Shown: positions 42,438-54,873 of the stretch, one piece after another | How the letters are laid out: every line of letters starts with the position of its first letter | Position numbering within the stretch: position 1 is the stretch's first letter | Assembly (NCBI GenBank): GCA_030167865.1 | Contig: JALAGF010005680.1 | Span: forward strand, 1 to 64,000 | Length of the DNA: 64,000 nt | Reading direction: 5' to 3' | Source of the DNA: Craspedostauros australis | Lineage: Eukaryota | Made by a program: the position numbers and the translations under genes | The notes under the pieces: model-generated | What the model was told of the DNA's origin: nothing | Databases searched by the model: none | The model's input: the letters and a program-made list of their open reading frames with translations, nothing else

Positions 42438-43922
42438 TCAGTCAAAGCTTATCGTATTTAGCTCCTGTACTGACGACAGCATCACCAATCCGTTCGTCAT
42501 GCTCTCCAACTCGACCTGGTCATCGTACATCCCCAGCGTCGTGTTCTTCAGATGCGCGATTATTGTCGCAAGCGGCAGCGCTTGTTGTCGCTGCACGCTG
42601 TCCCCATTCTCATCCCCGTCGGCAATTGTTCCAAATGCTTTGCCCAAGCGCTGGAACATGATCTGCGATGTGACTTTGAGGCATTCCAACTGCGCATCTT
42701 CTACGATGGGACTGTCGACGATATCCCAAGTTTCATCCTGCATCAATTGCGCATCGCTCTTCTTGCGGGGTGTACATGGATCGTTCACGTCCGCGCGATC
42801 AGTTGCAGTCGCATCATTGGAAAAGCTGCCATTCATTCCATTGGTAATCTCTGCCTCGTCGTCATCCGGCGAGATAAAGAATCGCACGGGGCTTCTGGGA
42901 CGCTTTCCGCGGGACCTCTTGACGTACGTTCCGTAGAGCACTTCATCGATGATGGCCTGCAAGGTCTGCCGCAGGTCGTCCTCGGTCACATTCATCGTCG
43001 ATGGATCCAGCACGTTCCATTCGCCCATGTGGCGCGATACGCTACGCCGAACCGTGACGATCAGCTTGGCGATGCCGGTGTCGAAGAAGACATCGTACGT
43101 CCGAGCCAACATCAAGCGATGCGCCGAGGTGTTGCTATTTCCGATTTCATCGTCTGCGTTGCTGCTGTTGATGCCCATGTCGTTGTTGCCAGTGTGCTCG
43201 TTATCCCGCACTTGCTGCGCCATGTTTCGGGTGTAGAGATGCATCTGCGTCGTGAGCACGAGAAAGAGGCTCATATGCGCAAACATGGTAGCGATCAACC
43301 GCGTGGCTGTTTCCACCTTGATCGTGTCCCACAGATCCTTCTCCAGGTTCTCCAGTTCGCTCTTGCTCTCGTCCGCACCTTCCTCTTTGAGCTTCATCTT
43401 CTTCGCACGGAGCCGCTTCAACGCCTTCGTGGTCTTGGACGTGTTGGTGGATTGCTCGATGGTCATCATCGCTGTCGGGAACAGGTTGAGCGAAGCGTTG
43501 ATGACCTCCTCTTTGCACTTGATGAATTGCGCGCGCTTCAACTTCCACGCGTCCTTGTTGCTCCGCCTGCCATTGTACAATTGCGACGGATCGGCTGCTG
43601 CGACGGCAGTGATGGCGGTGGTGCTGGTTTCTGTCAGCCATCGCACGGAGGATGTCACGGCACCTGCCGTTTGGGAAACCCAATCTTTCAATGGCTTATT
43701 TCGGTCGTTCGCTGTGGCGGTGACGGCAACAGGATCAGCACGCTGGCCTACCTCGTCCGCTTCCGCTTCGCCCCCATCCTGCTCTTCCTCTCCGTCCTCA
43801 AAGACCGCGCTCGCAACACGGTATGCGCCGTACAAGGCAGCAGCCGTCACCAGCGTCCCTCCCACGAACGCCAACCCAAAGGGTCTCTGAGGGATTCGGC
43901 GTCTTGGACGACCAACGTTCAT
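42438..43922 (-). CDS. PEX3: Peroxin-3
   Basis: N-terminal basic stretch plus TM (RPRRR...FVGGTLVTAAALYGAYR) and KDLWDTIKVETATRLIATMFAHMSLFLVLTTQMHLYTR, matching the PEX3 K.LW..LK....TR......Q..L.R motif. C-terminal LPLATII. Confidence 0.85.
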   Translation of the reverse strand: MNVGRPRRRIPQRPFGLAFVGGTLVTAAALYGAYRVASAVFEDGEEEQDGGEAEADEVGQRADPVAVTATANDRNKPLKDWVSQTAGAVTSSVRWLTETSTTAITAVAAADPSQLYNGRRSNKDAWKLKRAQFIKCKEEVINASLNLFPTAMMTIEQSTNTSKTTKALKRLRAKKMKLKEEGADESKSELENLEKDLWDTIKVETATRLIATMFAHMSLFLVLTTQMHLYTRNMAQQVRDNEHTGNNDMGINSSNADDEIGNSNTSAHRLMLARTYDVFFDTGIAKLIVTVRRSVSRHMGEWNVLDPSTMNVTEDDLRQTLQAIIDEVLYGTYVKRSRGKRPRSPVRFFISPDDDEAEITNGMNGSFSNDATATDRADVNDPCTPRKKSDAQLMQDETWDIVDSPIVEDAQLECLKVTSQIMFQRLGKAFGTIADGDENGDSVQRQQALPLATIIAHLKNTTLGMYDDQVELESMTNGLVMLSSVQELNTISFD

Positions 43923-44443: not shown

Positions 44444-47272
44444 ATGAGACGGATCCCTGCGCTGAACGGCTTGCGACAGCGCCAACAGCAGAGGCATGGT
44501 ATGTGCAGGCTGCTGTTGCTGCTGCTTTGCATGGTTGTGGCTGCGCTTTCGTCGGAACAGAGCCAAGAGCAGCAGCACACGCAGAAGTCTGAGCAACAGC
44601 CACAGCATGAGCAGCAGCAGTACCAGCAGAATGAGCAACAGAATGAGCACCATGATCCCCCCGTCAACACGGTCAACACGGCAGCGACGACAACGAAGCA
44701 TGCTGATGAGACTGCCGTTGAGCACGATGTGAGGGACGACCACATCTCCGAGAAGATGGATGAGACGCCCCAACGGACAGAAACAGCAAATGCAAACCAC
44801 GAGGTTGATCCCGCCGATGCTGCTCATACCGAGGAAGTGGAAAGGGTGAAAGAGACGACACAGCCTGAACGAAAATCCAAGCCGGTATCCGTCCAACAGG
44901 AAAGGCATTCGGAAGAGGCTGCGGAGGAGCGATCGTCCACGCCGGTGCCAGACGATGAAGACCCCGCGCAGCAGGAAGACCGCAGGCAGGAGCATGTGTC
45001 AACGACCAATGGTGAAGAGGTGCGCTTCACGGAGAATGCCAGCGAACGTGGTCAAAATGAGATCAAGGATGAAAATGACAGCGCTGATGATGAATCCAAC
45101 TCACCTCCTCAAGACGAATGGAAACGGACGGAGGGTGATGATAGCGACTCCCAAGCAAAGACAGAACCAGGATCACAGAAGGAGAGTGCCCATGAATCAT
45201 CTGAAGGCGGAGAACGAGCGAACACTGAAACAGCGGAGGAGCAACGGGACCAACGGAAACGAGACGAATTGCCGGAGAATCACGCCACTGCCGGAAACGA
45301 GGATGCTGCAAGTGGACACGCGGAAGGTGATGCGGCAGCAGCAGATGATAAGGATTTGAATCCAAACATAGATGGGGGCAGCCCAGTCCAGGATGACGAG
45401 ATCCGTGAGCATACTCGTACACGCGATGAAGAACAACAGGAAACTCGCAAGCCAGAGGCTGTGCGGCATGAAGCGCCAGTAGTCACGGAAGCGCATGTGC
45501 AAGAGGAGGATTCGCGCCCAGTCGCTGAAGGTGAAGCGGCGAGTGTCGATGAAGACCCAATGAAGATGGCAGAGACGGTTCCACCAAATCCCGCGGTGGA
45601 AGCCCAAGAGGTGGAGTCAGAGGAGACCAAGCAGGAAGCCAAGCAAGACACAACGCAGGAGGAGACAACAACGAAGGTGGAGCCGCAAAAGGAGGAAGCA
45701 CAACGAAATGAGAACCATCCATCAGAGGAGGCAGCCACAACAAGTGCGAACGACGTGGATGAAGGAGACGTGGAGGTAGTGAATGCTACTGAACCAATCC
45801 CGTCATTATCTGAACATGAAGGTGAAACAGCGCAAGTTAACGATGAACCACAGAAATCACAATCAACGGAAGTCTCAACACATGAAGCGGACACCAACAT
45901 CGATGAGACCGCAAAAGGCCAACAGGACAAGGCGTCCAATGAGCCAAGCAGACCTGTAGATGGCGCTACCGCAGCCACTGGAACAGTCATGCATAACGAA
46001 ACTGAAACGGCTCAGGGTAAAGTCGATCCACGGCAACAGCCAGATGTCGCAGTCGAAGACGAAAAAAATGGTGTTGATGGAGCCACCGAAGAATCTGTCG
46101 ATTCTGCAAAGAATACCGAGACTGAAGTGTCTGCCGGCGAGGCCATCACGGAAGCGACTGAATCGCAGCAAAAACAGTCACCGACCGAAGATGCCACAGC
46201 CACGTCAACAGAGGCTGATGATTCTCAGGCCGCATCAGGAAACGAAGGCCAAGAAAGCAACGCTGATTCTGACCAAAAATCAACGCAAGACTTGCCGGTC
46301 AAGGAAAAGAAACCAGCCGCGGAAGGTTCCATGGCGAGCTTCTTTGAGAAGGCGTCATCTCAAGGCAGCGGCGGATTTCAAGCCATGCTCCAGCAGGCGG
46401 AGGTCCTGCAGCAAGCAGACAAGCCGGTGGCCAAGCCCACGCGGCCAGATCCCAAGAAGGATGAAGTTGCAGAACTCGCCCAGCTGAAGGTGTTGGCGAA
46501 GGATAAGGTATACGAGGGGAAATGGGGGATCCCAAACACCGAGCAAGCCCAGACCGACGTGGACTACTTATTCTCTCTCCTGTTCGAGTCCTACTGGAAT
46601 GGCAGCAACACGACCGAACGCGTCCCGCTCGGCACGCATCAAATGAAGCTCTCTAACTCGCCCAGGGAATCCAGTGCAACAGTGAGCAATAGCAGCAGCC
46701 AAGATACCAACCAAACAACATCGCAAGCCGACACTGATGGTCAACCACCAGCGGACACCGCCGATCGATCCGTCAACTCGGAATTCGTCGAAGGTCTGGA
46801 TGATATTAGCAAGCTCTTCGAAGCCGTCGATACTCCTGATGAGCTCGACGTGGGCGCATCCGGCTCCTCCATCCATGAAGTGCTGATGGGGCAAGGTAAG
46901 CAGATACTGCTAAAGCGGATCCGAGCGCTCTACAAAGCAATTCAAGCGACCATGATTCGGATGAAGGAAAGGATTGCATCCTCCATTTGGGACGAAGATG
47001 GCGAATTGCGGTTTAACCAGGATGACCTCCTCGTGGTGCTGGGCAGAGCGAAGGAGGTTGCGCAGAATCTGGCGAGCACCATAACGGAGCTGGTGCAGGA
47101 TCTTGTGGCCAAAGCGGAAGAGCTGGGTTTGGCTTTCGGTGGTGGCAGCGACGGCGGCGATGATGACGAATCGGATGAGTTTGATGAAGATGTGCAGAAC
47201 ACGATGGAAATGATCCAGAAGATGCGAAATCTTCAGCTGGACACCGACAGTGGAGCGGGGCCGGAAGAATAA
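44444..47272 (+). CDS. Large acidic low-complexity secretory-pathway protein with a small helical C-terminal domain
   Basis: Long ORF with a hydrophobic signal LLLLLLCMVVAALS (start 44444 or 44501). About 700 aa of E/D/Q/T-rich sequence, then NSEFVEGLDDISKLFEAVDTPDELDVGASGSSIHEVLMGQG. Confidence 0.75.
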   Translation: MRRIPALNGLRQRQQQRHGMCRLLLLLLCMVVAALSSEQSQEQQHTQKSEQQPQHEQQQYQQNEQQNEHHDPPVNTVNTAATTTKHADETAVEHDVRDDHISEKMDETPQRTETANANHEVDPADAAHTEEVERVKETTQPERKSKPVSVQQERHSEEAAEERSSTPVPDDEDPAQQEDRRQEHVSTTNGEEVRFTENASERGQNEIKDENDSADDESNSPPQDEWKRTEGDDSDSQAKTEPGSQKESAHESSEGGERANTETAEEQRDQRKRDELPENHATAGNEDAASGHAEGDAAAADDKDLNPNIDGGSPVQDDEIREHTRTRDEEQQETRKPEAVRHEAPVVTEAHVQEEDSRPVAEGEAASVDEDPMKMAETVPPNPAVEAQEVESEETKQEAKQDTTQEETTTKVEPQKEEAQRNENHPSEEAATTSANDVDEGDVEVVNATEPIPSLSEHEGETAQVNDEPQKSQSTEVSTHEADTNIDETAKGQQDKASNEPSRPVDGATAATGTVMHNETETAQGKVDPRQQPDVAVEDEKNGVDGATEESVDSAKNTETEVSAGEAITEATESQQKQSPTEDATATSTEADDSQAASGNEGQESNADSDQKSTQDLPVKEKKPAAEGSMASFFEKASSQGSGGFQAMLQQAEVLQQADKPVAKPTRPDPKKDEVAELAQLKVLAKDKVYEGKWGIPNTEQAQTDVDYLFSLLFESYWNGSNTTERVPLGTHQMKLSNSPRESSATVSNSSSQDTNQTTSQADTDGQPPADTADRSVNSEFVEGLDDISKLFEAVDTPDELDVGASGSSIHEVLMGQGKQILLKRIRALYKAIQATMIRMKERIASSIWDEDGELRFNQDDLLVVLGRAKEVAQNLASTITELVQDLVAKAEELGLAFGGGSDGGDDDESDEFDEDVQNTMEMIQKMRNLQLDTDSGAGPEE

Positions 47273-47633: not shown

Positions 47634-48905
47634 TCATGGCCTTGGTTGCACGAGGTCATCCTTGGTGATGGCATGGTCGATCATGAACGCGGCGATCTGA
47701 TCGTGGAAAAACTGTGCCCAGTCCATGAGGCTGTCTTGGCCGAGGAAGTAGACGAGGAACCAAAGCCAACGTTCGAGGCCACCCACACGGTACTCCTTCC
47801 AGCACTCATCCCAGCTGAGGCTGCCAACGCCGTTCTCCTGCAATACGGTGAAGTAGGCCTTCACCAGGCTTTCCTCGCAGTCCTTGCGTTCCTTCGGATC
47901 CATGTTGGAGAGGACGTACTGGCCCAGATCTTGCGGCCCGGATCCAAGTCCGCACATTTCGAAATCCAGCATTTTGAGGTTGCCGGCTGTATCTTTCCTG
48001 ATATCCCACAAGATGTTTCCCGGCCAGAAGTCACCATGTACCAGCGTCCAGTGGGTGGATTCGTTGAGTCTTGCCACCTGTGCGTCCCACGAGATCCCGG
48101 CGACGCCCTTTTCCACCGCTTCGCGTACGACTGGATTCCATTTGATCGTCTTGGCGTCATCATTGTTCTCCTGGCTGGTATACTTGGCCCAGCACCCCTT
48201 GACGATGTTCTGCGATGCCTCCCAGCTCTCCTTGCCTTCCTTTTGCAGCCACTGGCATCCGCGGAGCCAATCGTTCTCGAGCAGGGAGTTTTGTTGCCAG
48301 AAGGCTGCGTGCACCTTGGCGATGGCCTTGAACGTCGACTCTGCGACTTGCTCGCTGGTGGGAGGCGTGTCGCCAGCGCGGGCCACCATGGCGGGGAGGT
48401 CGCGCTGCCAGTTGTTGGGATTTCCAGGCCCGAAGAAGACGCCGGAATCCAGATATCCCTCGGAGAGATCCTCCATAATGATGACCTTCTCGCCAGTCGC
48501 CATGTCACCCCACGAGTAGTAAATGTGCGGGATGAACCCGACGCTTGGAGCTTCCTTCTCCAGCTTGGGTGCGAGCTGGGAGAAGAAGTGCGCCTCGCGT
48601 GCCAAGCCCAGGTACGAGCTGAGCTGCAGCCCGGCTCCGGTCGCCTGCTTAATGACGACGCAGGTCTGCTCGGTCGTCCCGTCGGCCTTGGTTGCGCCAT
48701 CGATCGTAACGAGCAGGGTCGCCCCGTCCTTGACCTCCGCCCCCTTTCGAGTGGCGTTGCTGATGTCCTTGACGACGCACTTCTTGCATGTCAGGGAGGT
48801 CTTGGATTCCATCCACTGGGGATCGATCTCGTTGTTCGAGAGCCACACCGGAGTGTTCGATGCGGATGCGGCTGCAGATGCCGGAGATGCGTTATCGGTT
48901 GCCAT
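47634..48905 (-). CDS. Aminoglycoside phosphotransferase / ecdysteroid-kinase-like protein
   Basis: VVIKQ, REAHFF, IIMEDL, IAKVHA, Brenner motif TLVHGDFWPGN and LDFE. Start taken at MATDN (48905). Confidence 0.85.
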   Translation of the reverse strand: MATDNASPASAAASASNTPVWLSNNEIDPQWMESKTSLTCKKCVVKDISNATRKGAEVKDGATLLVTIDGATKADGTTEQTCVVIKQATGAGLQLSSYLGLAREAHFFSQLAPKLEKEAPSVGFIPHIYYSWGDMATGEKVIIMEDLSEGYLDSGVFFGPGNPNNWQRDLPAMVARAGDTPPTSEQVAESTFKAIAKVHAAFWQQNSLLENDWLRGCQWLQKEGKESWEASQNIVKGCWAKYTSQENNDDAKTIKWNPVVREAVEKGVAGISWDAQVARLNESTHWTLVHGDFWPGNILWDIRKDTAGNLKMLDFEMCGLGSGPQDLGQYVLSNMDPKERKDCEESLVKAYFTVLQENGVGSLSWDECWKEYRVGGLERWLWFLVYFLGQDSLMDWAQFFHDQIAAFMIDHAITKDDLVQPRP

Positions 48906-49574
48906 TTTACTTGGTTGATGTGCGGATATTGCTGGTTCTTTGATTTGTGAGCGCTGCTTGTTCATTTGTTGAAGTTGAGATATGTGGGCTCCCCATGTTG
49001 CATTCCAATTCAAGCCGAACAAACAAGCAAGCAACCACGCAGCAACTTCCGATAGCCACACACGATGTTGTTGTTGGTGATGTGTCGCAGCACACAACAA
49101 CTAAAAGAGAAGAGAGAGCGAGGGACTTCCACAGCGATCGTCAGCGGAGCGAACAGATTCTCGTGTTGATTGACGAAAGCGAATCCTGGTGCACGACTGT
49201 GTGCACGACTGGGATAGACGACTTGGTGATTGTTCCAGGAACAATTTGTACGTTGTTCTTGCGGAGACGCAAGGTTCTTGTGGCATCACAGGTGGCCGAG
49301 CAGCAGCGTAGCATCCTCGAAGAGCATGTGTCATATTCTACTCGCATAGTACCATACACCTGCAAGTGTTGGATGCAATAGTCTGGGATAGGATGCGAAA
49401 CCCTACTCTGCTCGACTCAACTGTATTTAGACTCCACGCAGCTACGGAAACGCCAAGTACGAATATTGAAATTGGACAACCGTAAGCAGTGGGTTGTCAA
49501 GTTGTGTATTCGTAGAGTATGTTACGAATGCTGGAGGACTACGGTCCACTTGACTTGCTGCAAACGGAACCCCA

Positions 49575-51047
49575 TCACCAGCCATCATGGTCGTCGTCAT
49601 CATCATGGTCGTTATCGACATCGTCACGGCTGATCTTCGGTTTGGAAGGATTGTCGTTTTCGTTACGCCGCCGAGCCTGCCCTTGCTTGATGCGCCGATT
49701 CACATGGATGTGCCGAAGTGAGACGGACACGGGCTGCAAGATCGTGCTGCCATGGTTCTTGCGCAACAGATCTCGCAGCGCGGTCGCCGCCATCTCACAG
49801 TACGCCACAGACCGATGCCGGCCAAAATCGCTGCCGGCGTATATCGCCATACGAATGGGTAAAGCGTAGCCGTATCCTGCATCTTGGGTCTCATGAATGG
49901 CGCGGATAGTTTCCTTGGCGGTGGCTTGCGCCGAATCTTGAATCTCGCCGTTGGTCAGATCGAAGAGATTACGTTTGACTGTGTTCGACTGTCCGTCCTG
50001 CCCTTCCAAATTCGCTGCCACGAGGGGGAAGTCTCGACAATCCTGAACCGCCATCGGGTTGGAATGAGACCATCCGGCGCGGATTTCCGGTGGAGCACCA
50101 TGAAAGAAACCGAAGGAGCAGAATTCGACCGAGATGGGAGCCTTGCCCTGTTGCGCCAGTCGCGAGATATTGTTGCCCTGTGTCTGCGTTGTGTCCACGA
50201 CGGGTTCCATCTTTTTCCAGGATAGATCCTGTTCACCGAAATCCGCCAACAAGTTGGAAAGCGGCATGGCACACCGTGCGCGAAAATTAGTACCTTGTGA
50301 AGTGTTCGTGGATGCGGATGCTGTTGCTGCTGTTGCTGGTTTCACCGCAGAGGCATTCATCATGCCTGCCATGATGGCATCCATGTTGGGAGACGAAACT
50401 CTGCCTGCTTGCGTTGCTGCATTCCCATCAGTCACAGTGACTTTCCCGTCATTCGGTCTCATTGCCATTGATGACTGTGCGTTGCCTCCTTGTTTTGCAG
50501 TTTTGGGCTTGGACCATGATCCGAAGGATGATGTGCTTTTGCCTTTGTTATTCTTGTGCGAGTTCTTGCCACCTTTCTTTTCCTGCTTGTGCTGAACTAC
50601 GAGCCTGCAGTCTTCTAATTGGCTCCCATTCAGTTTGCGCATGATGTCATCGGCTTGTTTGGCATCGCCACACTCCAACAAGGCGTGCTGATTCTTTCCA
50701 TTCTTCTTGACTTGGATGGATTGGACAGTAGTTCTGCCGTCAGCACTACCATCGCCATCAAGATCATGCTGCTGTAAGAGATCCCGAATCTTGCTTGCAA
50801 CGTCGACAATGCCTGAACGAAGGCCACCAACGTAGAGCGTTCTGCCGACGTTGCTTCCGTTCCTCTTCTTGTTCTTCGATGCTGTCGAAGACACAACGAA
50901 TCCGTCATCAGCGTCAACATTGCCTGCCATGTTGCTCCCAGATGCAAATGCGATGCTGCTGTTGCTGTTGCTGTTGGCTTCTTGGGATCTGAGACCCTGT
51001 ATTTGAGATGGTTCATTTGGGGACACACAATGGAGATCTCCAGCCAC
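49575..51047 (-). CDS. RRM + RapZ C-terminal-domain-like fusion protein
   Basis: RRM: RTLYVGGL...HALLEC...ADDIMRKLNGSQLEDCRLVV. C-terminal SVEFCSFGFFHGAP...DCRDFP...MAIYAGSDFGRHRSVAYCE...LRHIH resembles the RapZ/YhbJ C-terminal domain. Confidence 0.75.
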   Translation of the reverse strand: MAGDLHCVSPNEPSQIQGLRSQEANSNSNSSIAFASGSNMAGNVDADDGFVVSSTASKNKKRNGSNVGRTLYVGGLRSGIVDVASKIRDLLQQHDLDGDGSADGRTTVQSIQVKKNGKNQHALLECGDAKQADDIMRKLNGSQLEDCRLVVQHKQEKKGGKNSHKNNKGKSTSSFGSWSKPKTAKQGGNAQSSMAMRPNDGKVTVTDGNAATQAGRVSSPNMDAIMAGMMNASAVKPATAATASASTNTSQGTNFRARCAMPLSNLLADFGEQDLSWKKMEPVVDTTQTQGNNISRLAQQGKAPISVEFCSFGFFHGAPPEIRAGWSHSNPMAVQDCRDFPLVAANLEGQDGQSNTVKRNLFDLTNGEIQDSAQATAKETIRAIHETQDAGYGYALPIRMAIYAGSDFGRHRSVAYCEMAATALRDLLRKNHGSTILQPVSVSLRHIHVNRRIKQGQARRRNENDNPSKPKISRDDVDNDHDDDDDHDGW

Positions 51048-51695: not shown

Positions 51696-53154
51696 ATGCC
51701 ATCGTTAACTATGGCGGTGAGGAAATGCGGCATGGCCATTGCTTGCGTCGTCGCCATGCACCTGTCGTGTGCCATTCCACGCACACAAGCCTGGGGAACA
51801 GAAGGACACGAGATAGTCGCGAACATTGCGTACGAACGTCTCAGCCAGGATGCGAAAGACTTCGTGCAGGCCATTCTGGGCAACATGAACAACACCAAGG
51901 AGGCAGGATCGCCACTCGCGGCGGTGGCCGATTGGGCCGACAGAGTGCGTCCCTACTACCATTGGTCCGGCGCGCTGCATTACATCGATGTCAGCGATGA
52001 TCAGATCGATGGCGGTTGCCCCATCAACACCACGAACGCGCAATGCAGATTCATTTACGATCGTGACTGTGTCGATGATGTCTGTGTGGCCGGTGCCATA
52101 CAGAACTACACCAAGCAATTGCAGGCACTTCCTGCCATGCATTTGTTCACCGGCAGCAAGAGGCGTCAATTTGTGCAGGGCATCGATCACGCCCATGGTG
52201 ACCAGAATCTCCGAGGCTCGCAGAGCGCGCCACATACGATGAACGAGCGCCGCCTGCTGGCAAACCAAACGGTCAATGCTCTCAAGTTCCTCACGCAGTA
52301 AGTTGTCACAGCAGGATGGCACACCGAAGCGTACTGCCGTTTTGTCTATTCCGCAGGAATCTCAGTTTCATGATTGGTGTTTCGAGATTCGCCAGGTTTT
52401 CGTTGATACTGGAAGCGTGAATGGTCCGCCTCGTCCGGTCACTCATACGTACGTTCACCTGCTTCTTGTTCTCGCACAAACATCACCCCACGCAACGACC
52501 ACAATTGCATCTCTCTCGATGCGCCAATTCAATCAAATTGACAGCTTCGTCGGCGACGTCCATCAACCGCTGCACTGCTCGCGCACCACCGACAAAGGCG
52601 GCAATGACTTCCATGTCAAGTTCGATGACTCATCCGCCCTCACGGCCAAACCGTCGAGACGAGGACCTGCCAACTCCAGCACCGGCGTCCATGTTATCAA
52701 CAGTAATAGCAATGGAGATGACACCGCGCCATCCCTACGCAAGCATCACAGCTGGAATCTGCATTCCGTCTGGGACACTGGCATCATCGACAAAGCGATT
52801 CACGAAACATACGGAACGCGCCAAATGATGGAACAGAGCTTGATCGGCAAAAGCCACAGCCCGGCCTACCATGACAAAGTCGTCAAATGGTTGAGCTGCT
52901 CCGATGGATCCCATTGGCAGTGTCCCGCGCGGTGGGGACAGGAGAGCTTTGACGATGCCATGAAATGGGCATACACCAATTCTGATGGCACTGAAGTCGT
53001 GAATGGTTCCGAATTGAATGATGACTATTACGCGACGCGGGTGGACATCGTGCAAGATCGATTGATTGCCGGTGGAGTTCGGTTGGCAACGATCTTGGAA
53101 CAGCTTGTTAAAGGTTGGAGGATCAGTGGTGCTGTCAGACTGCGATTTGAATGA
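51696..53154 (+). CDS. Secreted S1/P1 nuclease (2 exons)
   Basis: Exons 51696-52297 and 52545-53154. Signal peptide then WGTEGH, WADRVR and LHYID. The junction gives LKFLTHFVGDVHQPLH, followed by GGN, NLHSVWD and GGVRLA. Confidence 0.93.
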
Positions 53155-53418: not shown

Positions 53419-54873
53419 TTAGCCAGCAGCACACTGCTTCCTCAAAAAGCTGTAGTTGTCAGTGACAAACCACAGTTGCCACATGCGGAATCTGGCAAAC
53501 TTGCGCGATTTGCCGCTGATGAAATTGTTGTGCACCAGCAGCACACCGTCCTGTTGAGATTGATATTGCGCTCGCTGTTTCCAAATTGCATAGGTTCGTC
53601 CATTGGGAAAGTGCGGATTGTTGTTGGGATACAATCGTATTTTGGTGCTTCCTTGCTGCTCCTGCTGCTGCTGGTACGTTTCGTACATGGCGTATTGATC
53701 ATTCTGAAAATGCCCCGTATCAATCGTCTTCTGCCACTGTCGAAGGAAGGCGATGGTATTCTCGGTTGGCAGCATGTACAACATACCAGTACAGATCTTC
53801 CCTTCCTGCGGCTGTCCGCTGTCCACCATGGCGACAATGTCGTACAAGTATCGTGCGGTACCATGGTCGTGATCATGGCCATTTGATATCGCGAACGTTG
53901 GCTGTGGCCGTGGCTGTGACTGTGGCTGCGGCGGCAGAAGGAATGAAGCAAGGTGCTCCTCCCCCTCCTCCCTCGCCGATAGATCCAAGAAGTCCAACGC
54001 ATTGTGTCGACGCCAAACGACATCAATGTCGCAGTAAAATACCTTGAGACCAAGCTGAAGAAACGTCGTGATGATCGTCGGCCGCGTCGATGTCAGCTGC
54101 TTGAAGTCTTGCTTCCCAATATCCAGCGGCTTCTTCACCAATCGCGATTTCACGAATGGCGGGATCGTCGTTACGTGATTGGGATACAATCGTCGCAGCA
54201 TCTGCTCGGCCTGTGCATCCATCGGCACGATGCAGAAGTTAGTGACATTCAAACGCTGCATGGAGATGACGCAATTCTCCACAAAATCCACGTATCCGCA
54301 GGATGCAATGAGGATAACCAATCGGTGCTGCGTGTCCGCGAGGCGCGTGATCATCTTGCCGAGCCAATGTTGTGCTGGAGAGGATTGGATGTGGGCAGCA
54401 GCAGCATTGTCGGTTGGAATTGATTGTTGTGATGCCTGCTCCACAGATTGTGACATTGATCGCGTCTTTGTCGGCTTTTGCTCCTTCAATGCTCGTGGAT
54501 CATCGATGTTGAGATCATTACGTTGATCAGCTGTTCCCGATCGCGAATGTTTGGATTCGCCTCTCTCCTCAGGTTGATCCAGCCGGTGCTCTTCCTGCGA
54601 TGGCAATCTCCATTGCGAGCTTCTGTTGTTCGCGGCCCAGAAGTTCGCGATGCAAAGCCAGACGACTAACACCACGACAACCTCTCGTAATCCAAATCGT
54701 TTTTCAACAGCACCACCTTGTATTCTGCCGAATCGCATTGAAGATGGTAGCGATGCTGCCACTGCAGCTGTTGCTGTTGTTGCTGTTATTTCTGCTGCTG
54801 CTGCTGATGATGATGATCCTGATGATGATGACAATGCTGGCAATGGCGTCGAGCATGAATGGTTGTACATCAT
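53419..54873 (-). CDS. Nucleotide-diphospho-sugar transferase (GT77-like), type II membrane protein
   Basis: TM VVVVLVVWLCIANFW, DxD motif FYCDIDVVW, ICTGMLY, NDQ, FPNG and VHNNFISG..K..R. The start is uncertain. Confidence 0.85.
   Translation of the reverse strand: MMYNHSCSTPLPALSSSSGSSSSAAAAEITATTATAAVAASLPSSMRFGRIQGGAVEKRFGLREVVVVLVVWLCIANFWAANNRSSQWRLPSQEEHRLDQPEERGESKHSRSGTADQRNDLNIDDPRALKEQKPTKTRSMSQSVEQASQQSIPTDNAAAAHIQSSPAQHWLGKMITRLADTQHRLVILIASCGYVDFVENCVISMQRLNVTNFCIVPMDAQAEQMLRRLYPNHVTTIPPFVKSRLVKKPLDIGKQDFKQLTSTRPTIITTFLQLGLKVFYCDIDVVWRRHNALDFLDLSAREEGEEHLASFLLPPQPQSQPRPQPTFAISNGHDHDHGTARYLYDIVAMVDSGQPQEGKICTGMLYMLPTENTIAFLRQWQKTIDTGHFQNDQYAMYETYQQQQEQQGSTKIRLYPNNNPHFPNGRTYAIWKQRAQYQSQQDGVLLVHNNFISGKSRKFARFRMWQLWFVTDNYSFLRKQCAAG

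What the first reader, a model, noticed from the sequence alone, without database searches (positions are those of the whole stretch)
49575..51047. Eukaryotic RRM fused to a RapZ C-terminal-domain-like module: candidate metabolite-sensing RNA-binding protein
Seen: an intronless 490-aa ORF with an RRM (about 50843-50590), a Lys/Ser/Ala-rich linker, and a C-terminal domain (about 50143-49700) reading SFGFFHGAP...DCRDFP...IYAGSDFGRHRSVAYCE...RHIH. Known: the bacterial RapZ (YhbJ) CTD has SFGFK.G.P...D.R.LPNP...IGCTGG.HRSV...H and binds the sRNA GlmZ and glucosamine-6-phosphate to control glmS. Inference: the N-terminal P-loop domain of RapZ is replaced here by an RRM, suggesting an RNA regulator that could respond to a phosphosugar. 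The CTGG loop is altered to SDFG, so the ligand may differ.
Basis: partly seen in the sequence, partly recalled or inferred. Interest (0 to 1): 0.7.

Follow-up and report, generated by a model that had tools for sequence, protein, structure and literature searches.

The report
Diatom RRM protein, dead RapZ loop
This diatom gene joins an RNA-recognition domain to the phosphate-binding domain of the bacterial regulator RapZ, but the cysteine suspected of being catalytic is a serine in every family member that shows the loop, so it most likely grips a phosphate group without cutting it rather than copying RapZ's RNA-binding trick.

Summary
The predicted fold matches RRMs (Z 10.7) and the RapZ C-terminal domain (Z 15.9). 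The gene has one detected copy. It belongs to a large unstudied family (145 clusters at E<=1e-30) whose named members are diatoms and Parmales. This scan noted the fusion before in three other genomes.

New here: RapZ's loop is a phosphatase-type C-x-x-G-x-H-R-S. Its Cys247 is Ser in 187 of 187 family rows that show the loop, against Cys in 24 of 24 bacterial hits. This protein has S-D-F where E. coli has C247-T248-G249, and C247S, T248D and G249W each inactivate E. coli RapZ. G, H and R of the loop stay invariant. The RRM scores in 86 of 127 full-length rows and was lost several times.

Best reading (0.55): a catalytically dead phosphate-reading domain in an RNA-associated scaffold, ligand unknown. 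RapZ-style GlcN6P-gated RNA binding by this domain is unlikely (0.12). No function was measured.

The parts
49575..50930 (-). Intronless ORF, 451 aa (P0002); only one copy detected in the assembly
   Evidence: one match in the own genome; one match over the PF22740 cut-off
50931..51047 (-).
   Evidence: homologue N-termini align with ATG 50930
50862..50909 (-). N-terminal acidic-aromatic-basic linear motif (DDGF...KKR, residues 8-23), family-conserved, function unknown
   Evidence: regex present in 62/86 RRM rows and 26/35 RRM-less rows, against 4.7 and 1.9 expected from shuffles
50583..50849 (-). RRM-fold domain (residues 28-116); RNP2 Tyr kept, RNP1 degenerate; absent in several family lineages
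   Evidence: RNP2 position 2 is Y/F in 67/71, RNP1 position 3 is H/F/Y in 59/71, RNP1 position 5 is F/Y in 20/71
50505..50525 (-). F-G-S-W-S-K-P linear motif in the disordered linker (residues 136-142)
   Evidence: W.[KRTQA]P in 74/86 RRM rows and 32/35 RRM-less rows, against 2.3 and 1.4 in shuffles
50217..50285 (-). Conserved family-specific pre-domain element (residues 216-238, F...LSxLLADFGExDxxW), probably packed on the CTD
   Evidence: L227 124/133, G232 126/133, D235 117/133; pLDDT 71-82 in the deep-alignment model; scored at 15 bits or more in 122 of 127 rows
49695..50147 (-). RapZ C-terminal-domain fold (PF22740), residues 262-412
49806..49835 (-). Phosphate-binding loop G366-S-D-F-G-R-H-R-S-V375; S367 (AGC, 49830-49832) stands where RapZ has Cys247
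   Evidence: S367, G370, H372 and R373 each 133/133 in alignment A3; Ser in 151/151 and 36/36 rows with the loop; E. coli numbering
49761..49775 (-). Invariant Arg pair R386/R390 on the helix after the loop (corresponding to E. coli R266/K270)
   Evidence: 133/133 each; numbering; basic patch described in PMC5737377 passages
49575..49625 (-). Acidic tail ending in Trp (residues 436-451)
   Evidence: net-acidic last 8 residues in 101/127 rows, terminal W in 62/127

Best explanation
This is a diatom/Parmales RNA-associated scaffold protein whose constant core is a catalytically dead RapZ-C domain, a pseudophosphatase-like phosphate reader. SHOWN: the two folds; the loop S-x-x-G-[RK]-H-R-S in place of RapZ's C-x-x-G-x-H-R-S; invariance of S, G, H and R; repeated loss of the RRM while the linear motifs and the CTD stay. 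INFERRED from Cys-phosphatase chemistry (established knowledge): the loop amides and R373 still cradle a phosphate monoester, but Ser cannot act as the thiolate nucleophile, so the ligand is held and not cleaved. INFERRED: the mostly acidic residue after the Ser and the loss of K170/H190 disfavour RapZ's way of laying an RNA duplex backbone through the pocket. The ligand is therefore a terminal phosphate. Within this reading my split is about 45% small phospho-metabolite (for example an amino-sugar phosphate, whose amine would suit the acid), 30% phospho-Ser/Thr/Tyr of a partner protein, and 25% an RNA end phosphate. INFERRED: the RRM, or basic and Gly/Arg-rich stretches where it is missing, adds RNA avidity. 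The linear motifs dock the protein on a larger RNP. Occupancy of the pocket would set whether or where it docks.
For: Ser at the Cys247 position in 151/151 loop-bearing rows of 162 (the regex did not require Ser) and in 36/36 of 37 further rows. Cys in 24/24 bacterial RapZ hits and in all 11 rows of a Cys-type alignment, four of them standalone or fused actinophage proteins and one a Thermobifida phage protein, found by tblastn or word search rather than by a Cys pattern. PMC7199280 (passage) states that the RapZ pocket is homologous to the phosphatase loop of Cys-dependent tyrosine phosphatases. PMC9841335 (section 8 and passages): C247S inactivates RapZ, the authors suspect a catalytic -SH, and CTD crystals with GlcN6P show a transformed product. 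PMC7525490 (passage) cites phosphatase activity for YvcJ. hhalign puts the RapZ-C loop in register with the loop of dual-specificity phosphatases (probability 30, E 5e-4). 17 of the 50 listed fold hits of the CTD model are class I CX5R phosphatases, Z 3.8-4.5. A second conserved acid of Cys-type members (D202; at least 90% in A5) is Ser in 111/133. The T248 position is D/E in 118/151. Precedent: MK-STYX has Ser for the catalytic Cys and works as a binder (PMC2873733 abstract).
Against: No binding or activity was measured. Catalysis by RapZ Cys247 is itself only a published hypothesis, so 'dead' presumes an activity not yet shown. The structural link to phosphatases is weak: Z 3.8-4.5 lies in the background range, below phosphofructokinase (Z 5.0-6.3), and residue-level superposition of the loops was not available. 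The diatom profile itself barely matches phosphatases (probability 1.7). E. coli C247S loses GlmZ binding rather than trapping it; this could mean that Ser damages the pocket, or that the mutant is stuck on GlcN6P. H190, a pocket residue, is not kept in this protein in either register. Invariance of G, H and R could be structural.
Confidence: 0.55

Rival explanations
1. Vestigial pocket: the RapZ-C fold is kept as a protein-interaction or structural scaffold (invariant R386/R390 surface, pre-domain element, linear motifs), and the loop binds nothing.
For: C247S, T248D and G249W are loss-of-function in E. coli. The G249 position varies widely, with 16 different residues in 151 rows. H190 and K170 are not conserved. 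Many invariant residues lie outside the loop (R386, R390, G313, G354).
Against: S367, H372 and R373 are 133/133. A relaxed pocket should let the Ser drift to Ala, Gly or Thr; none was seen in 187 rows.
Confidence: 0.2
2. One reading: a eukaryotic RapZ analogue whose CTD binds structured RNA across a dimer, is displaced by glucosamine-6-phosphate, and with the RRM controls a hexosamine-pathway mRNA.
For: Same fold (Z 15.9). The E. coli CTD alone binds GlcN6P and sRNA (PMC7073468 passages). R184, K251, R266, K270, H276 and the dimer-strand D182 have conserved counterparts (R299 118/133, R371 R/K 129/133, R386, R390, H407 132/133, D297 123/133).
Against: The loop carries the changes that abolish GlmZ binding and cleavage in E. 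coli. The K170 position is K/R in only 50/133 and is Phe here. The chain ends in an acidic tail. Even B. subtilis YvcJ has no evidence of RNA binding (PMC7525490 passage). The RRM was lost repeatedly.
Confidence: 0.12
3. Still an enzyme: Ser367, helped by invariant His372/Arg373, acts as nucleophile or positions water, for example as an RNA-end or sugar-phosphate phosphatase guided by the RRM.
For: Strict invariance of Ser, His, Arg and D297 looks like an active site. Cys-type RapZ-C is fused to P-loop or APH-like kinases and to HNH nucleases elsewhere, which suggests an enzymatic ancestry.
Against: Cys-to-Ser is the standard inactivating change in CX5R enzymes (established knowledge; MK-STYX abstract). 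The D202 counterpart is also lost.
Confidence: 0.1

Closest known systems
E. coli RapZ (YhbJ) C-terminal domain, PF22740; PDB 5O5S, 5O5Q, 8B0I, 8B0J
   Same: Fold (Z 15.8-15.9, rmsd 1.8-2.1, 121-123 aligned, about 25% identity); SFG, D-x-R, G-x-H-R-S-V and the terminal H; counterparts of R184, K251, H252, R253, R266, K270.
   Different: No P-loop kinase domain; RRM and linear motifs instead. C247 is S, T248 is D, G249 is F. K170 and H190 are not kept. There is an insertion before the D-x-R strand, a 10-residue insertion before the last strand, an extra pre-domain element and an acidic-Trp tail.
Standalone or otherwise fused RapZ-C proteins of actinophages, giant viruses, fungi and gut bacteria (uncharacterised)
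   Same: Same domain without the RapZ P-loop partner; they score against the diatom profile as well as full RapZ does.
   Different: Those read here keep Cys. The 74 IMG/VR loci were found with a Cys-containing pattern and so do not test this. The fungal and giant-virus sequences were not retrievable, so their loop residue is unknown.
Class I Cys-dependent (CX5R) phosphatases and their Cys-to-Ser pseudophosphatases, e.g. MK-STYX
   Same: Strand-loop-helix with x-x-x-G-x-x-R-S spacing in register; weak fold hits; a natural Ser at the nucleophile position.
   Different: Overall fold similarity is only Z 3.8-4.5; no His before the nucleophile; His within the loop; homology is not established.
Canonical RRMs (U2AF65, IMP3, PSRP2)
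   Same: Beta-alpha-beta-beta-alpha-beta fold, Z about 10; RNP2 aromatic kept.
   Different: RNP1 position 5 is mostly Leu, RNP1 position 1 is not basic; below the Pfam cut-off; dispensable in the family.

Membership tests
RapZ C-terminal domain (PF22740) | Profile match to the domain | tested here: met
   24-26 bits (cut-off 27), 27.2 bits; 12 of 20 homologues at or over the cut-off; hhalign probability 99.2
RapZ C-terminal domain (PF22740) | RapZ-CTD fold | tested here: met
   Z 15.9, rmsd 2.1, 121 aligned; Z 15.8, rmsd 1.8; Foldseek E 3e-5
RapZ RNase adaptor (UPF0042, PRK05416) | N-terminal Walker A/B P-loop kinase domain | tested here: not met
   No PF03668 match; NCBIfam 17 bits against cut-off 244, C-terminal half only; the N-terminal domain is an RRM
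RapZ RNase adaptor (UPF0042, PRK05416) | Pocket and RNA-contact residues required in vivo: K170, H190, C247, T248 (not Asp), G249 (not bulky), R253 | tested here: not met
   Only R253 (R373) and H252 are kept; F276, no His at 190, S367, D368, F369
RapZ RNase adaptor (UPF0042, PRK05416) | CTD homodimer through the strand ending in D182 | tested here: inconclusive
   D297 is kept in 123/133; the complex prediction returned no answer (see Tried and rejected)
RapZ RNase adaptor (UPF0042, PRK05416) | Binds GlcN6P and structured sRNA, recruits RNase E | not testable with these tools
   needs biochemistry
RRM | RRM fold | tested here: met
   DSSP pattern and pLDDT above 90 in the core; Z 10.7; Foldseek E 6e-5
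RRM | RNP2 and RNP1 aromatic RNA-stacking residues | tested here: inconclusive
   Y33 kept (Y/F 67/71); H82 (H/F/Y 59/71); L84 (F/Y only 20/71)
Active CX5R phosphatase | Nucleophilic Cys in C-x5-R | tested here: not met
   Ser in 187 of 187 loop-bearing rows
CX5R (class I PTP/DSP) superfamily, as a pseudophosphatase | Loop spacing X-x-x-G-x-x-R-[ST] between a strand and a helix | tested here: met
   S367-D-F-G-R-H-R373-S between strand 144-152 and helix 158-176 of the CTD model; in register with DSP loops
CX5R (class I PTP/DSP) superfamily, as a pseudophosphatase | Shared overall fold / homology with PTP/DSP | tested here: inconclusive
   17 of 50 rows at Z 3.8-4.5, background range; hhalign probability 30 and 1.7
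CX5R (class I PTP/DSP) superfamily, as a pseudophosphatase | Binds a phospho-ligand; activity appears when Cys is present | not testable with these tools
   needs biochemistry

The most novel reading that the evidence does not exclude
RapZ-C is an unrecognised small class of Cys-dependent phosphatases. The ancestor of diatoms and Parmales acquired one and fixed a Cys-to-Ser change, turning it into a non-consuming sensor of a phosphorylated metabolite (for example a hexosamine phosphate) that regulates mRNA fate through its RRM and linear motifs. That would be a eukaryotic metabolite-gated RNA regulator built from a bacterial or phage pseudo-enzyme.
Probability: 0.15. Interest if true: 0.82.

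Novelty: new variant of a known kind. Interest (0 to 1): 0.52.

Why it matters
It identifies a conserved, unstudied gene family of diatoms and Parmales with a likely role in post-transcriptional control. It also bears on an open question in the RapZ field: whether Cys247 is catalytic (raised in PMC7199280 and PMC9841335). The diatom family is a natural C247S version under strict conservation, and the ~120-aa phage proteins are natural minimal Cys versions. Together they make a direct test: activity of the minimal Cys proteins, ligand trapping by the Ser domain, and gain of activity on Ser-to-Cys exchange.

Tried and rejected
Homologues exist as MMETSP transcripts (P0114; P0143).

Homodimer prediction of the CTD: no answer, score 0.00, alignment not used; not counted either way.

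Donor of the domain: not resolved. There is a gap from 108 bits (family) to 38 bits (bacterial RapZ) among the 8000 candidates scored. Standalone phage and full bacterial proteins tie. No viral contig encodes a close relative. tblastn of the CTD against annotated phages gave no match. P0249 against viral contigs confirmed nothing. The prokaryotic genome collection was not scanned (one search gave an error).

Atlas search with RapZ families excluded: no usable hit.

LMW-PTP/ArsC/PTS-EIIB, my first idea for the loop: not among the 50 listed fold hits; not excluded.

Synteny: the downstream APH/EcKL kinase gene (47634-48965) and three other neighbours gave no tblastn hit in five short homologous loci or in two loci holding long RapZ-C fusion ORFs; treated as unrelated.

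A second PF22740 candidate in the genome (C504, 18.7 bits, contains a stop) was not followed.

The tree of 127 CTDs is the quick tree; the careful search did not finish. 72 of 199 rows were left out as partial, lacking an initial Met or too short upstream.

Literature, listings only unless stated: RapZ+eukaryot 54 papers, 25 listed; RapZ+diatom 2, both on cyanobacterial YlxR; RapZ+C247; YvcJ+phosphatase; HpaP/phosphatase/RapZ; RapZ+tyrosine phosphatase 2; RapZ+phosphatase loop 1. A six-term search returned 15 listed papers, none mentioning RapZ, and was uninformative. None of the listed titles or abstract starts describes the eukaryotic family; subscription papers are not covered.

Full report
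1. Observation. The first ATG is at 50930 and gives a 451-aa protein, P0002, whose N-terminus aligns with those of homologues. Residue numbers below refer to P0002. Pfam gives PF22740 (RapZ C-terminal) at E 1.2e-5, 26 bits, just under the cut-off of 27, and RRM_5 at E 0.008. NCBIfam RapZ matches only the C-terminal half, 17 bits against a cut-off of 244. AlphaFold on a 21-sequence alignment gives two confident domains joined by a disordered linker (pTM 0.42). The model matches the E. coli RapZ CTD at Z 15.9 (rmsd 2.1, 121 aligned) and RRMs at up to Z 10.7; Foldseek agrees. A CTD-only model from 133 sequences has mean pLDDT 92.7 and matches RapZ at Z 15.8, with the next fold (phosphofructokinase) at Z 5.0-6.3. 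Both domain calls are secure. Only one copy was detected in the assembly.

2. The family. Word-index searches found 2 and then 20 relatives. A profile search of 1.84 billion representatives found 145 clusters at E<=1e-30 and 652 at E<=0.001, of which the best 150 were listed. Most have no name. Every named member is a diatom (Leptocylindrus, Pseudo-nitzschia, Nitzschia, Fistulifera, Coscinodiscus, Bacillariaceae) or Triparma (Parmales, Bolidophyceae). I looked up names for 30 of about 200 proteins, so other hosts are not excluded. UniRef labels the Fistulifera protein 'RapZ C-terminal domain-containing protein'. Below the family there is a gap from 108 to 38 bits, followed by ordinary bacterial RapZ (only 8000 candidates scored). 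Earlier agents of this scan noted the same fusion in three other genomes. That is not independent evidence; my own results agree with theirs on domains and range.

3. What is constant and what is not. Among 127 full-length rows (of 199; the rest partial, lacking an initial Met or short upstream), 86 score as having the RRM, 6 weakly, and 35 not at all. By eye about three of the 35 look like diverged RRMs and about three have mis-called starts. Most of the rest run directly from the N-terminal DDG[FW]...KK motif into the F...W-x-K-P motif, some with Gly/Arg-rich stretches between. On a quick CTD tree the RRM-less label needs 16 changes, at least 6 of them forced by well-supported branches. Triparma has the RRM (29.9 and 14.8 bits). 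The RRM is therefore probably ancestral and was lost several times. It keeps the RNP2 aromatic (67/71), but RNP1 is degenerate (position 5 aromatic in 20/71). The constant parts are two linear motifs far above shuffle levels, a pre-domain element at residues 216-238, the CTD and usually an acidic tail.

4. The loop. With E. coli numbering read, G366-S-D-F-G-R-H-R-S-V375 corresponds to G246-C-T-G-G-K-H-R-S-V255. The Cys247 position is Ser in 151 of 151 loop-bearing rows out of 162 (11 rows lack a regex match, mostly fragments) and in 36 of 36 out of 37 further rows. It is Cys in 24 of 24 bacterial hits and in 11 of 11 rows of an alignment that includes standalone and fused phage proteins. S367, G370, H372, R373, R386 and R390 are each 133/133 in alignment A3. 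The T248 position is Asp/Glu in 118/151, and the G249 position is variable and never Gly. In E. coli RapZ, C247S, C247A, T248D, G249W, H190A, R253A and K170A abolish GlmZ cleavage, and the tested variants lose GlmZ pull-down; the authors call the C247S result unexpected and suggest a catalytic -SH (PMC9841335, section 8 read). They also report a chemically transformed product in the pocket of CTD crystals grown with GlcN6P (passage; supplement hits seen). This protein thus carries natural versions of three inactivating changes, and also lacks K170 (F276) and H190 (the register around 190 is ambiguous, but neither candidate position is His).

5. Phosphatase connection. C-x-x-G-x-x-R-S is the spacing of the Cys-dependent phosphatase loop (established knowledge). 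PMC7199280 already says that the RapZ pocket is homologous to that loop and proposes GlcN6P hydrolysis (passage), so this link is not new for RapZ. YvcJ is cited as having phosphatase activity (PMC7525490 passage; the original paper is not held), as is HpaP (PMC9742497 passages). My tests give weak but consistent support. hhalign places the Cys-type loop in register with nine dual-specificity phosphatases from this genome (probability 30, E 5e-4), but the diatom profile scores only 1.7. 17 of the 50 listed fold hits are class I CX5R phosphatases at Z 3.8-4.5, within background. RapZ-C also occurs as a free module: 61 of 74 viral loci encode it in at most 190 aa (found with a Cys pattern). Giant viruses have it (Yasminevirus E 1.2e-7 and others), fungi have it, and it is fused to HNH nucleases or kinases in phages and a gut contig. 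A small mobile domain with an invariant Cys, Asp, His and Arg fits an enzyme. It also means that 'P-loop replaced by RRM' is not demonstrated, since standalone and full-length proteins score alike against the diatom profile (42.5 and 42.6 bits).

6. Mechanism. Most likely (0.55) the CTD is a dead phosphate reader: the amide cradle and R373 bind a phosphomonoester, and Ser cannot attack it, as in the pseudophosphatase MK-STYX (PMC2873733 abstract). The acid next to the Ser argues against RapZ's duplex-backbone mode. The ligand would be a small phospho-metabolite, a phosphoprotein site or an RNA end. The RRM and linear motifs place the protein in an RNP. All of this beyond the sequence and fold facts is inference. 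Against it: RapZ catalysis is unproven, E. coli C247S loses RNA binding rather than trapping it, and H190 is gone.

7. Membership and novelty. The protein contains a PF22740 domain and an RRM-fold domain. It is not a RapZ adaptor (no P-loop domain; required pocket residues not met) and not an active CX5R phosphatase (no Cys). Pseudophosphatase is a statement of how it likely works; homology to the PTP superfamily is inconclusive. The paper searches listed under Tried and rejected found no description of this eukaryotic family, within an open-access library and mostly from listings. Verdict: a real, lineage-wide, unstudied new variant of a known domain. The most interesting feature is the fixed Cys-to-Ser loop rather than the fusion itself. 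Interest 0.52.

Noticed in passing
L026:572-1666 (Corynebacterium phage phi16 gp101); L024:1501-2148 (phage Adelaide gp59); L021:1220-1878 (Gordonia phage Tarzan): Cys-type RapZ-C is fused to, or abuts, an HNH endonuclease at the right end of actinophage genomes. In phi16 it is P-loop kinase-like + RapZ-C + HNH, which resembles a kinase/phosphatase end-healing cassette. In Adelaide an annotated RtcB and a tRNA-Leu gene lie just upstream.
   Followed up: partly
L025:2-1411 and 1415-2170; L036:1469-2968: In a gut contig, RapZ-C (Cys type) is the C-terminus of a long protein that looks like an APH-type kinase, followed by a nucleotidyltransferase-like ORF; this recalls an AmgK/MurU-type recycling locus (labels recalled, not scanned).
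   Followed up: no
L032-L101 (IMG/VR): Dozens of ~110-130-aa standalone RapZ-C genes in mostly high-GC viral contigs; candidate minimal enzymes, neighbourhoods not examined.
   Followed up: partly
BFVD hits A0A5K0UAE1, A0A1V0SIZ8, A0A481Z1D5, A0A481YXD0, A0A3G5A6C5, A0A3G5A569: Giant viruses (Yasminevirus, Klosneuvirus, Pithovirus, Marseillevirus, Hyperionvirus, Harvfovirus) encode RapZ-C-fold proteins; the Yasminevirus one is the best viral match to the diatom domain. Loop residue not read.
   Followed up: no
window 47634-48965 (-): EcKL/APH-like kinase ORF directly downstream on the same strand; no sign of conserved linkage in the few homologous loci held.
   Followed up: partly
window 51696-53154 (+): S1/P1 nuclease gene in two ORF pieces (probably intron-split), divergent from the gene studied.
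   Followed up: no
window 42438-43922 (-) and 53419-54873 (-): Peroxin-3-like ORF and a nucleotide-diphospho-sugar transferase ORF.
   Followed up: no
window 44444-47272 (+): 942-aa ORF with strong AT skew and no convincing Pfam match.
   Followed up: no
G000:C504:107652-107792 (L010): Weak second PF22740 candidate, 18.7 bits, with an internal stop; probably chance.
   Followed up: no
window 50862-50909 and 50505-50525 (-): Two linear motifs (DDG[FW]...KK and F...W-x-K-P) are kept even where the RRM between them is deleted; their partners are unknown.
   Followed up: partly
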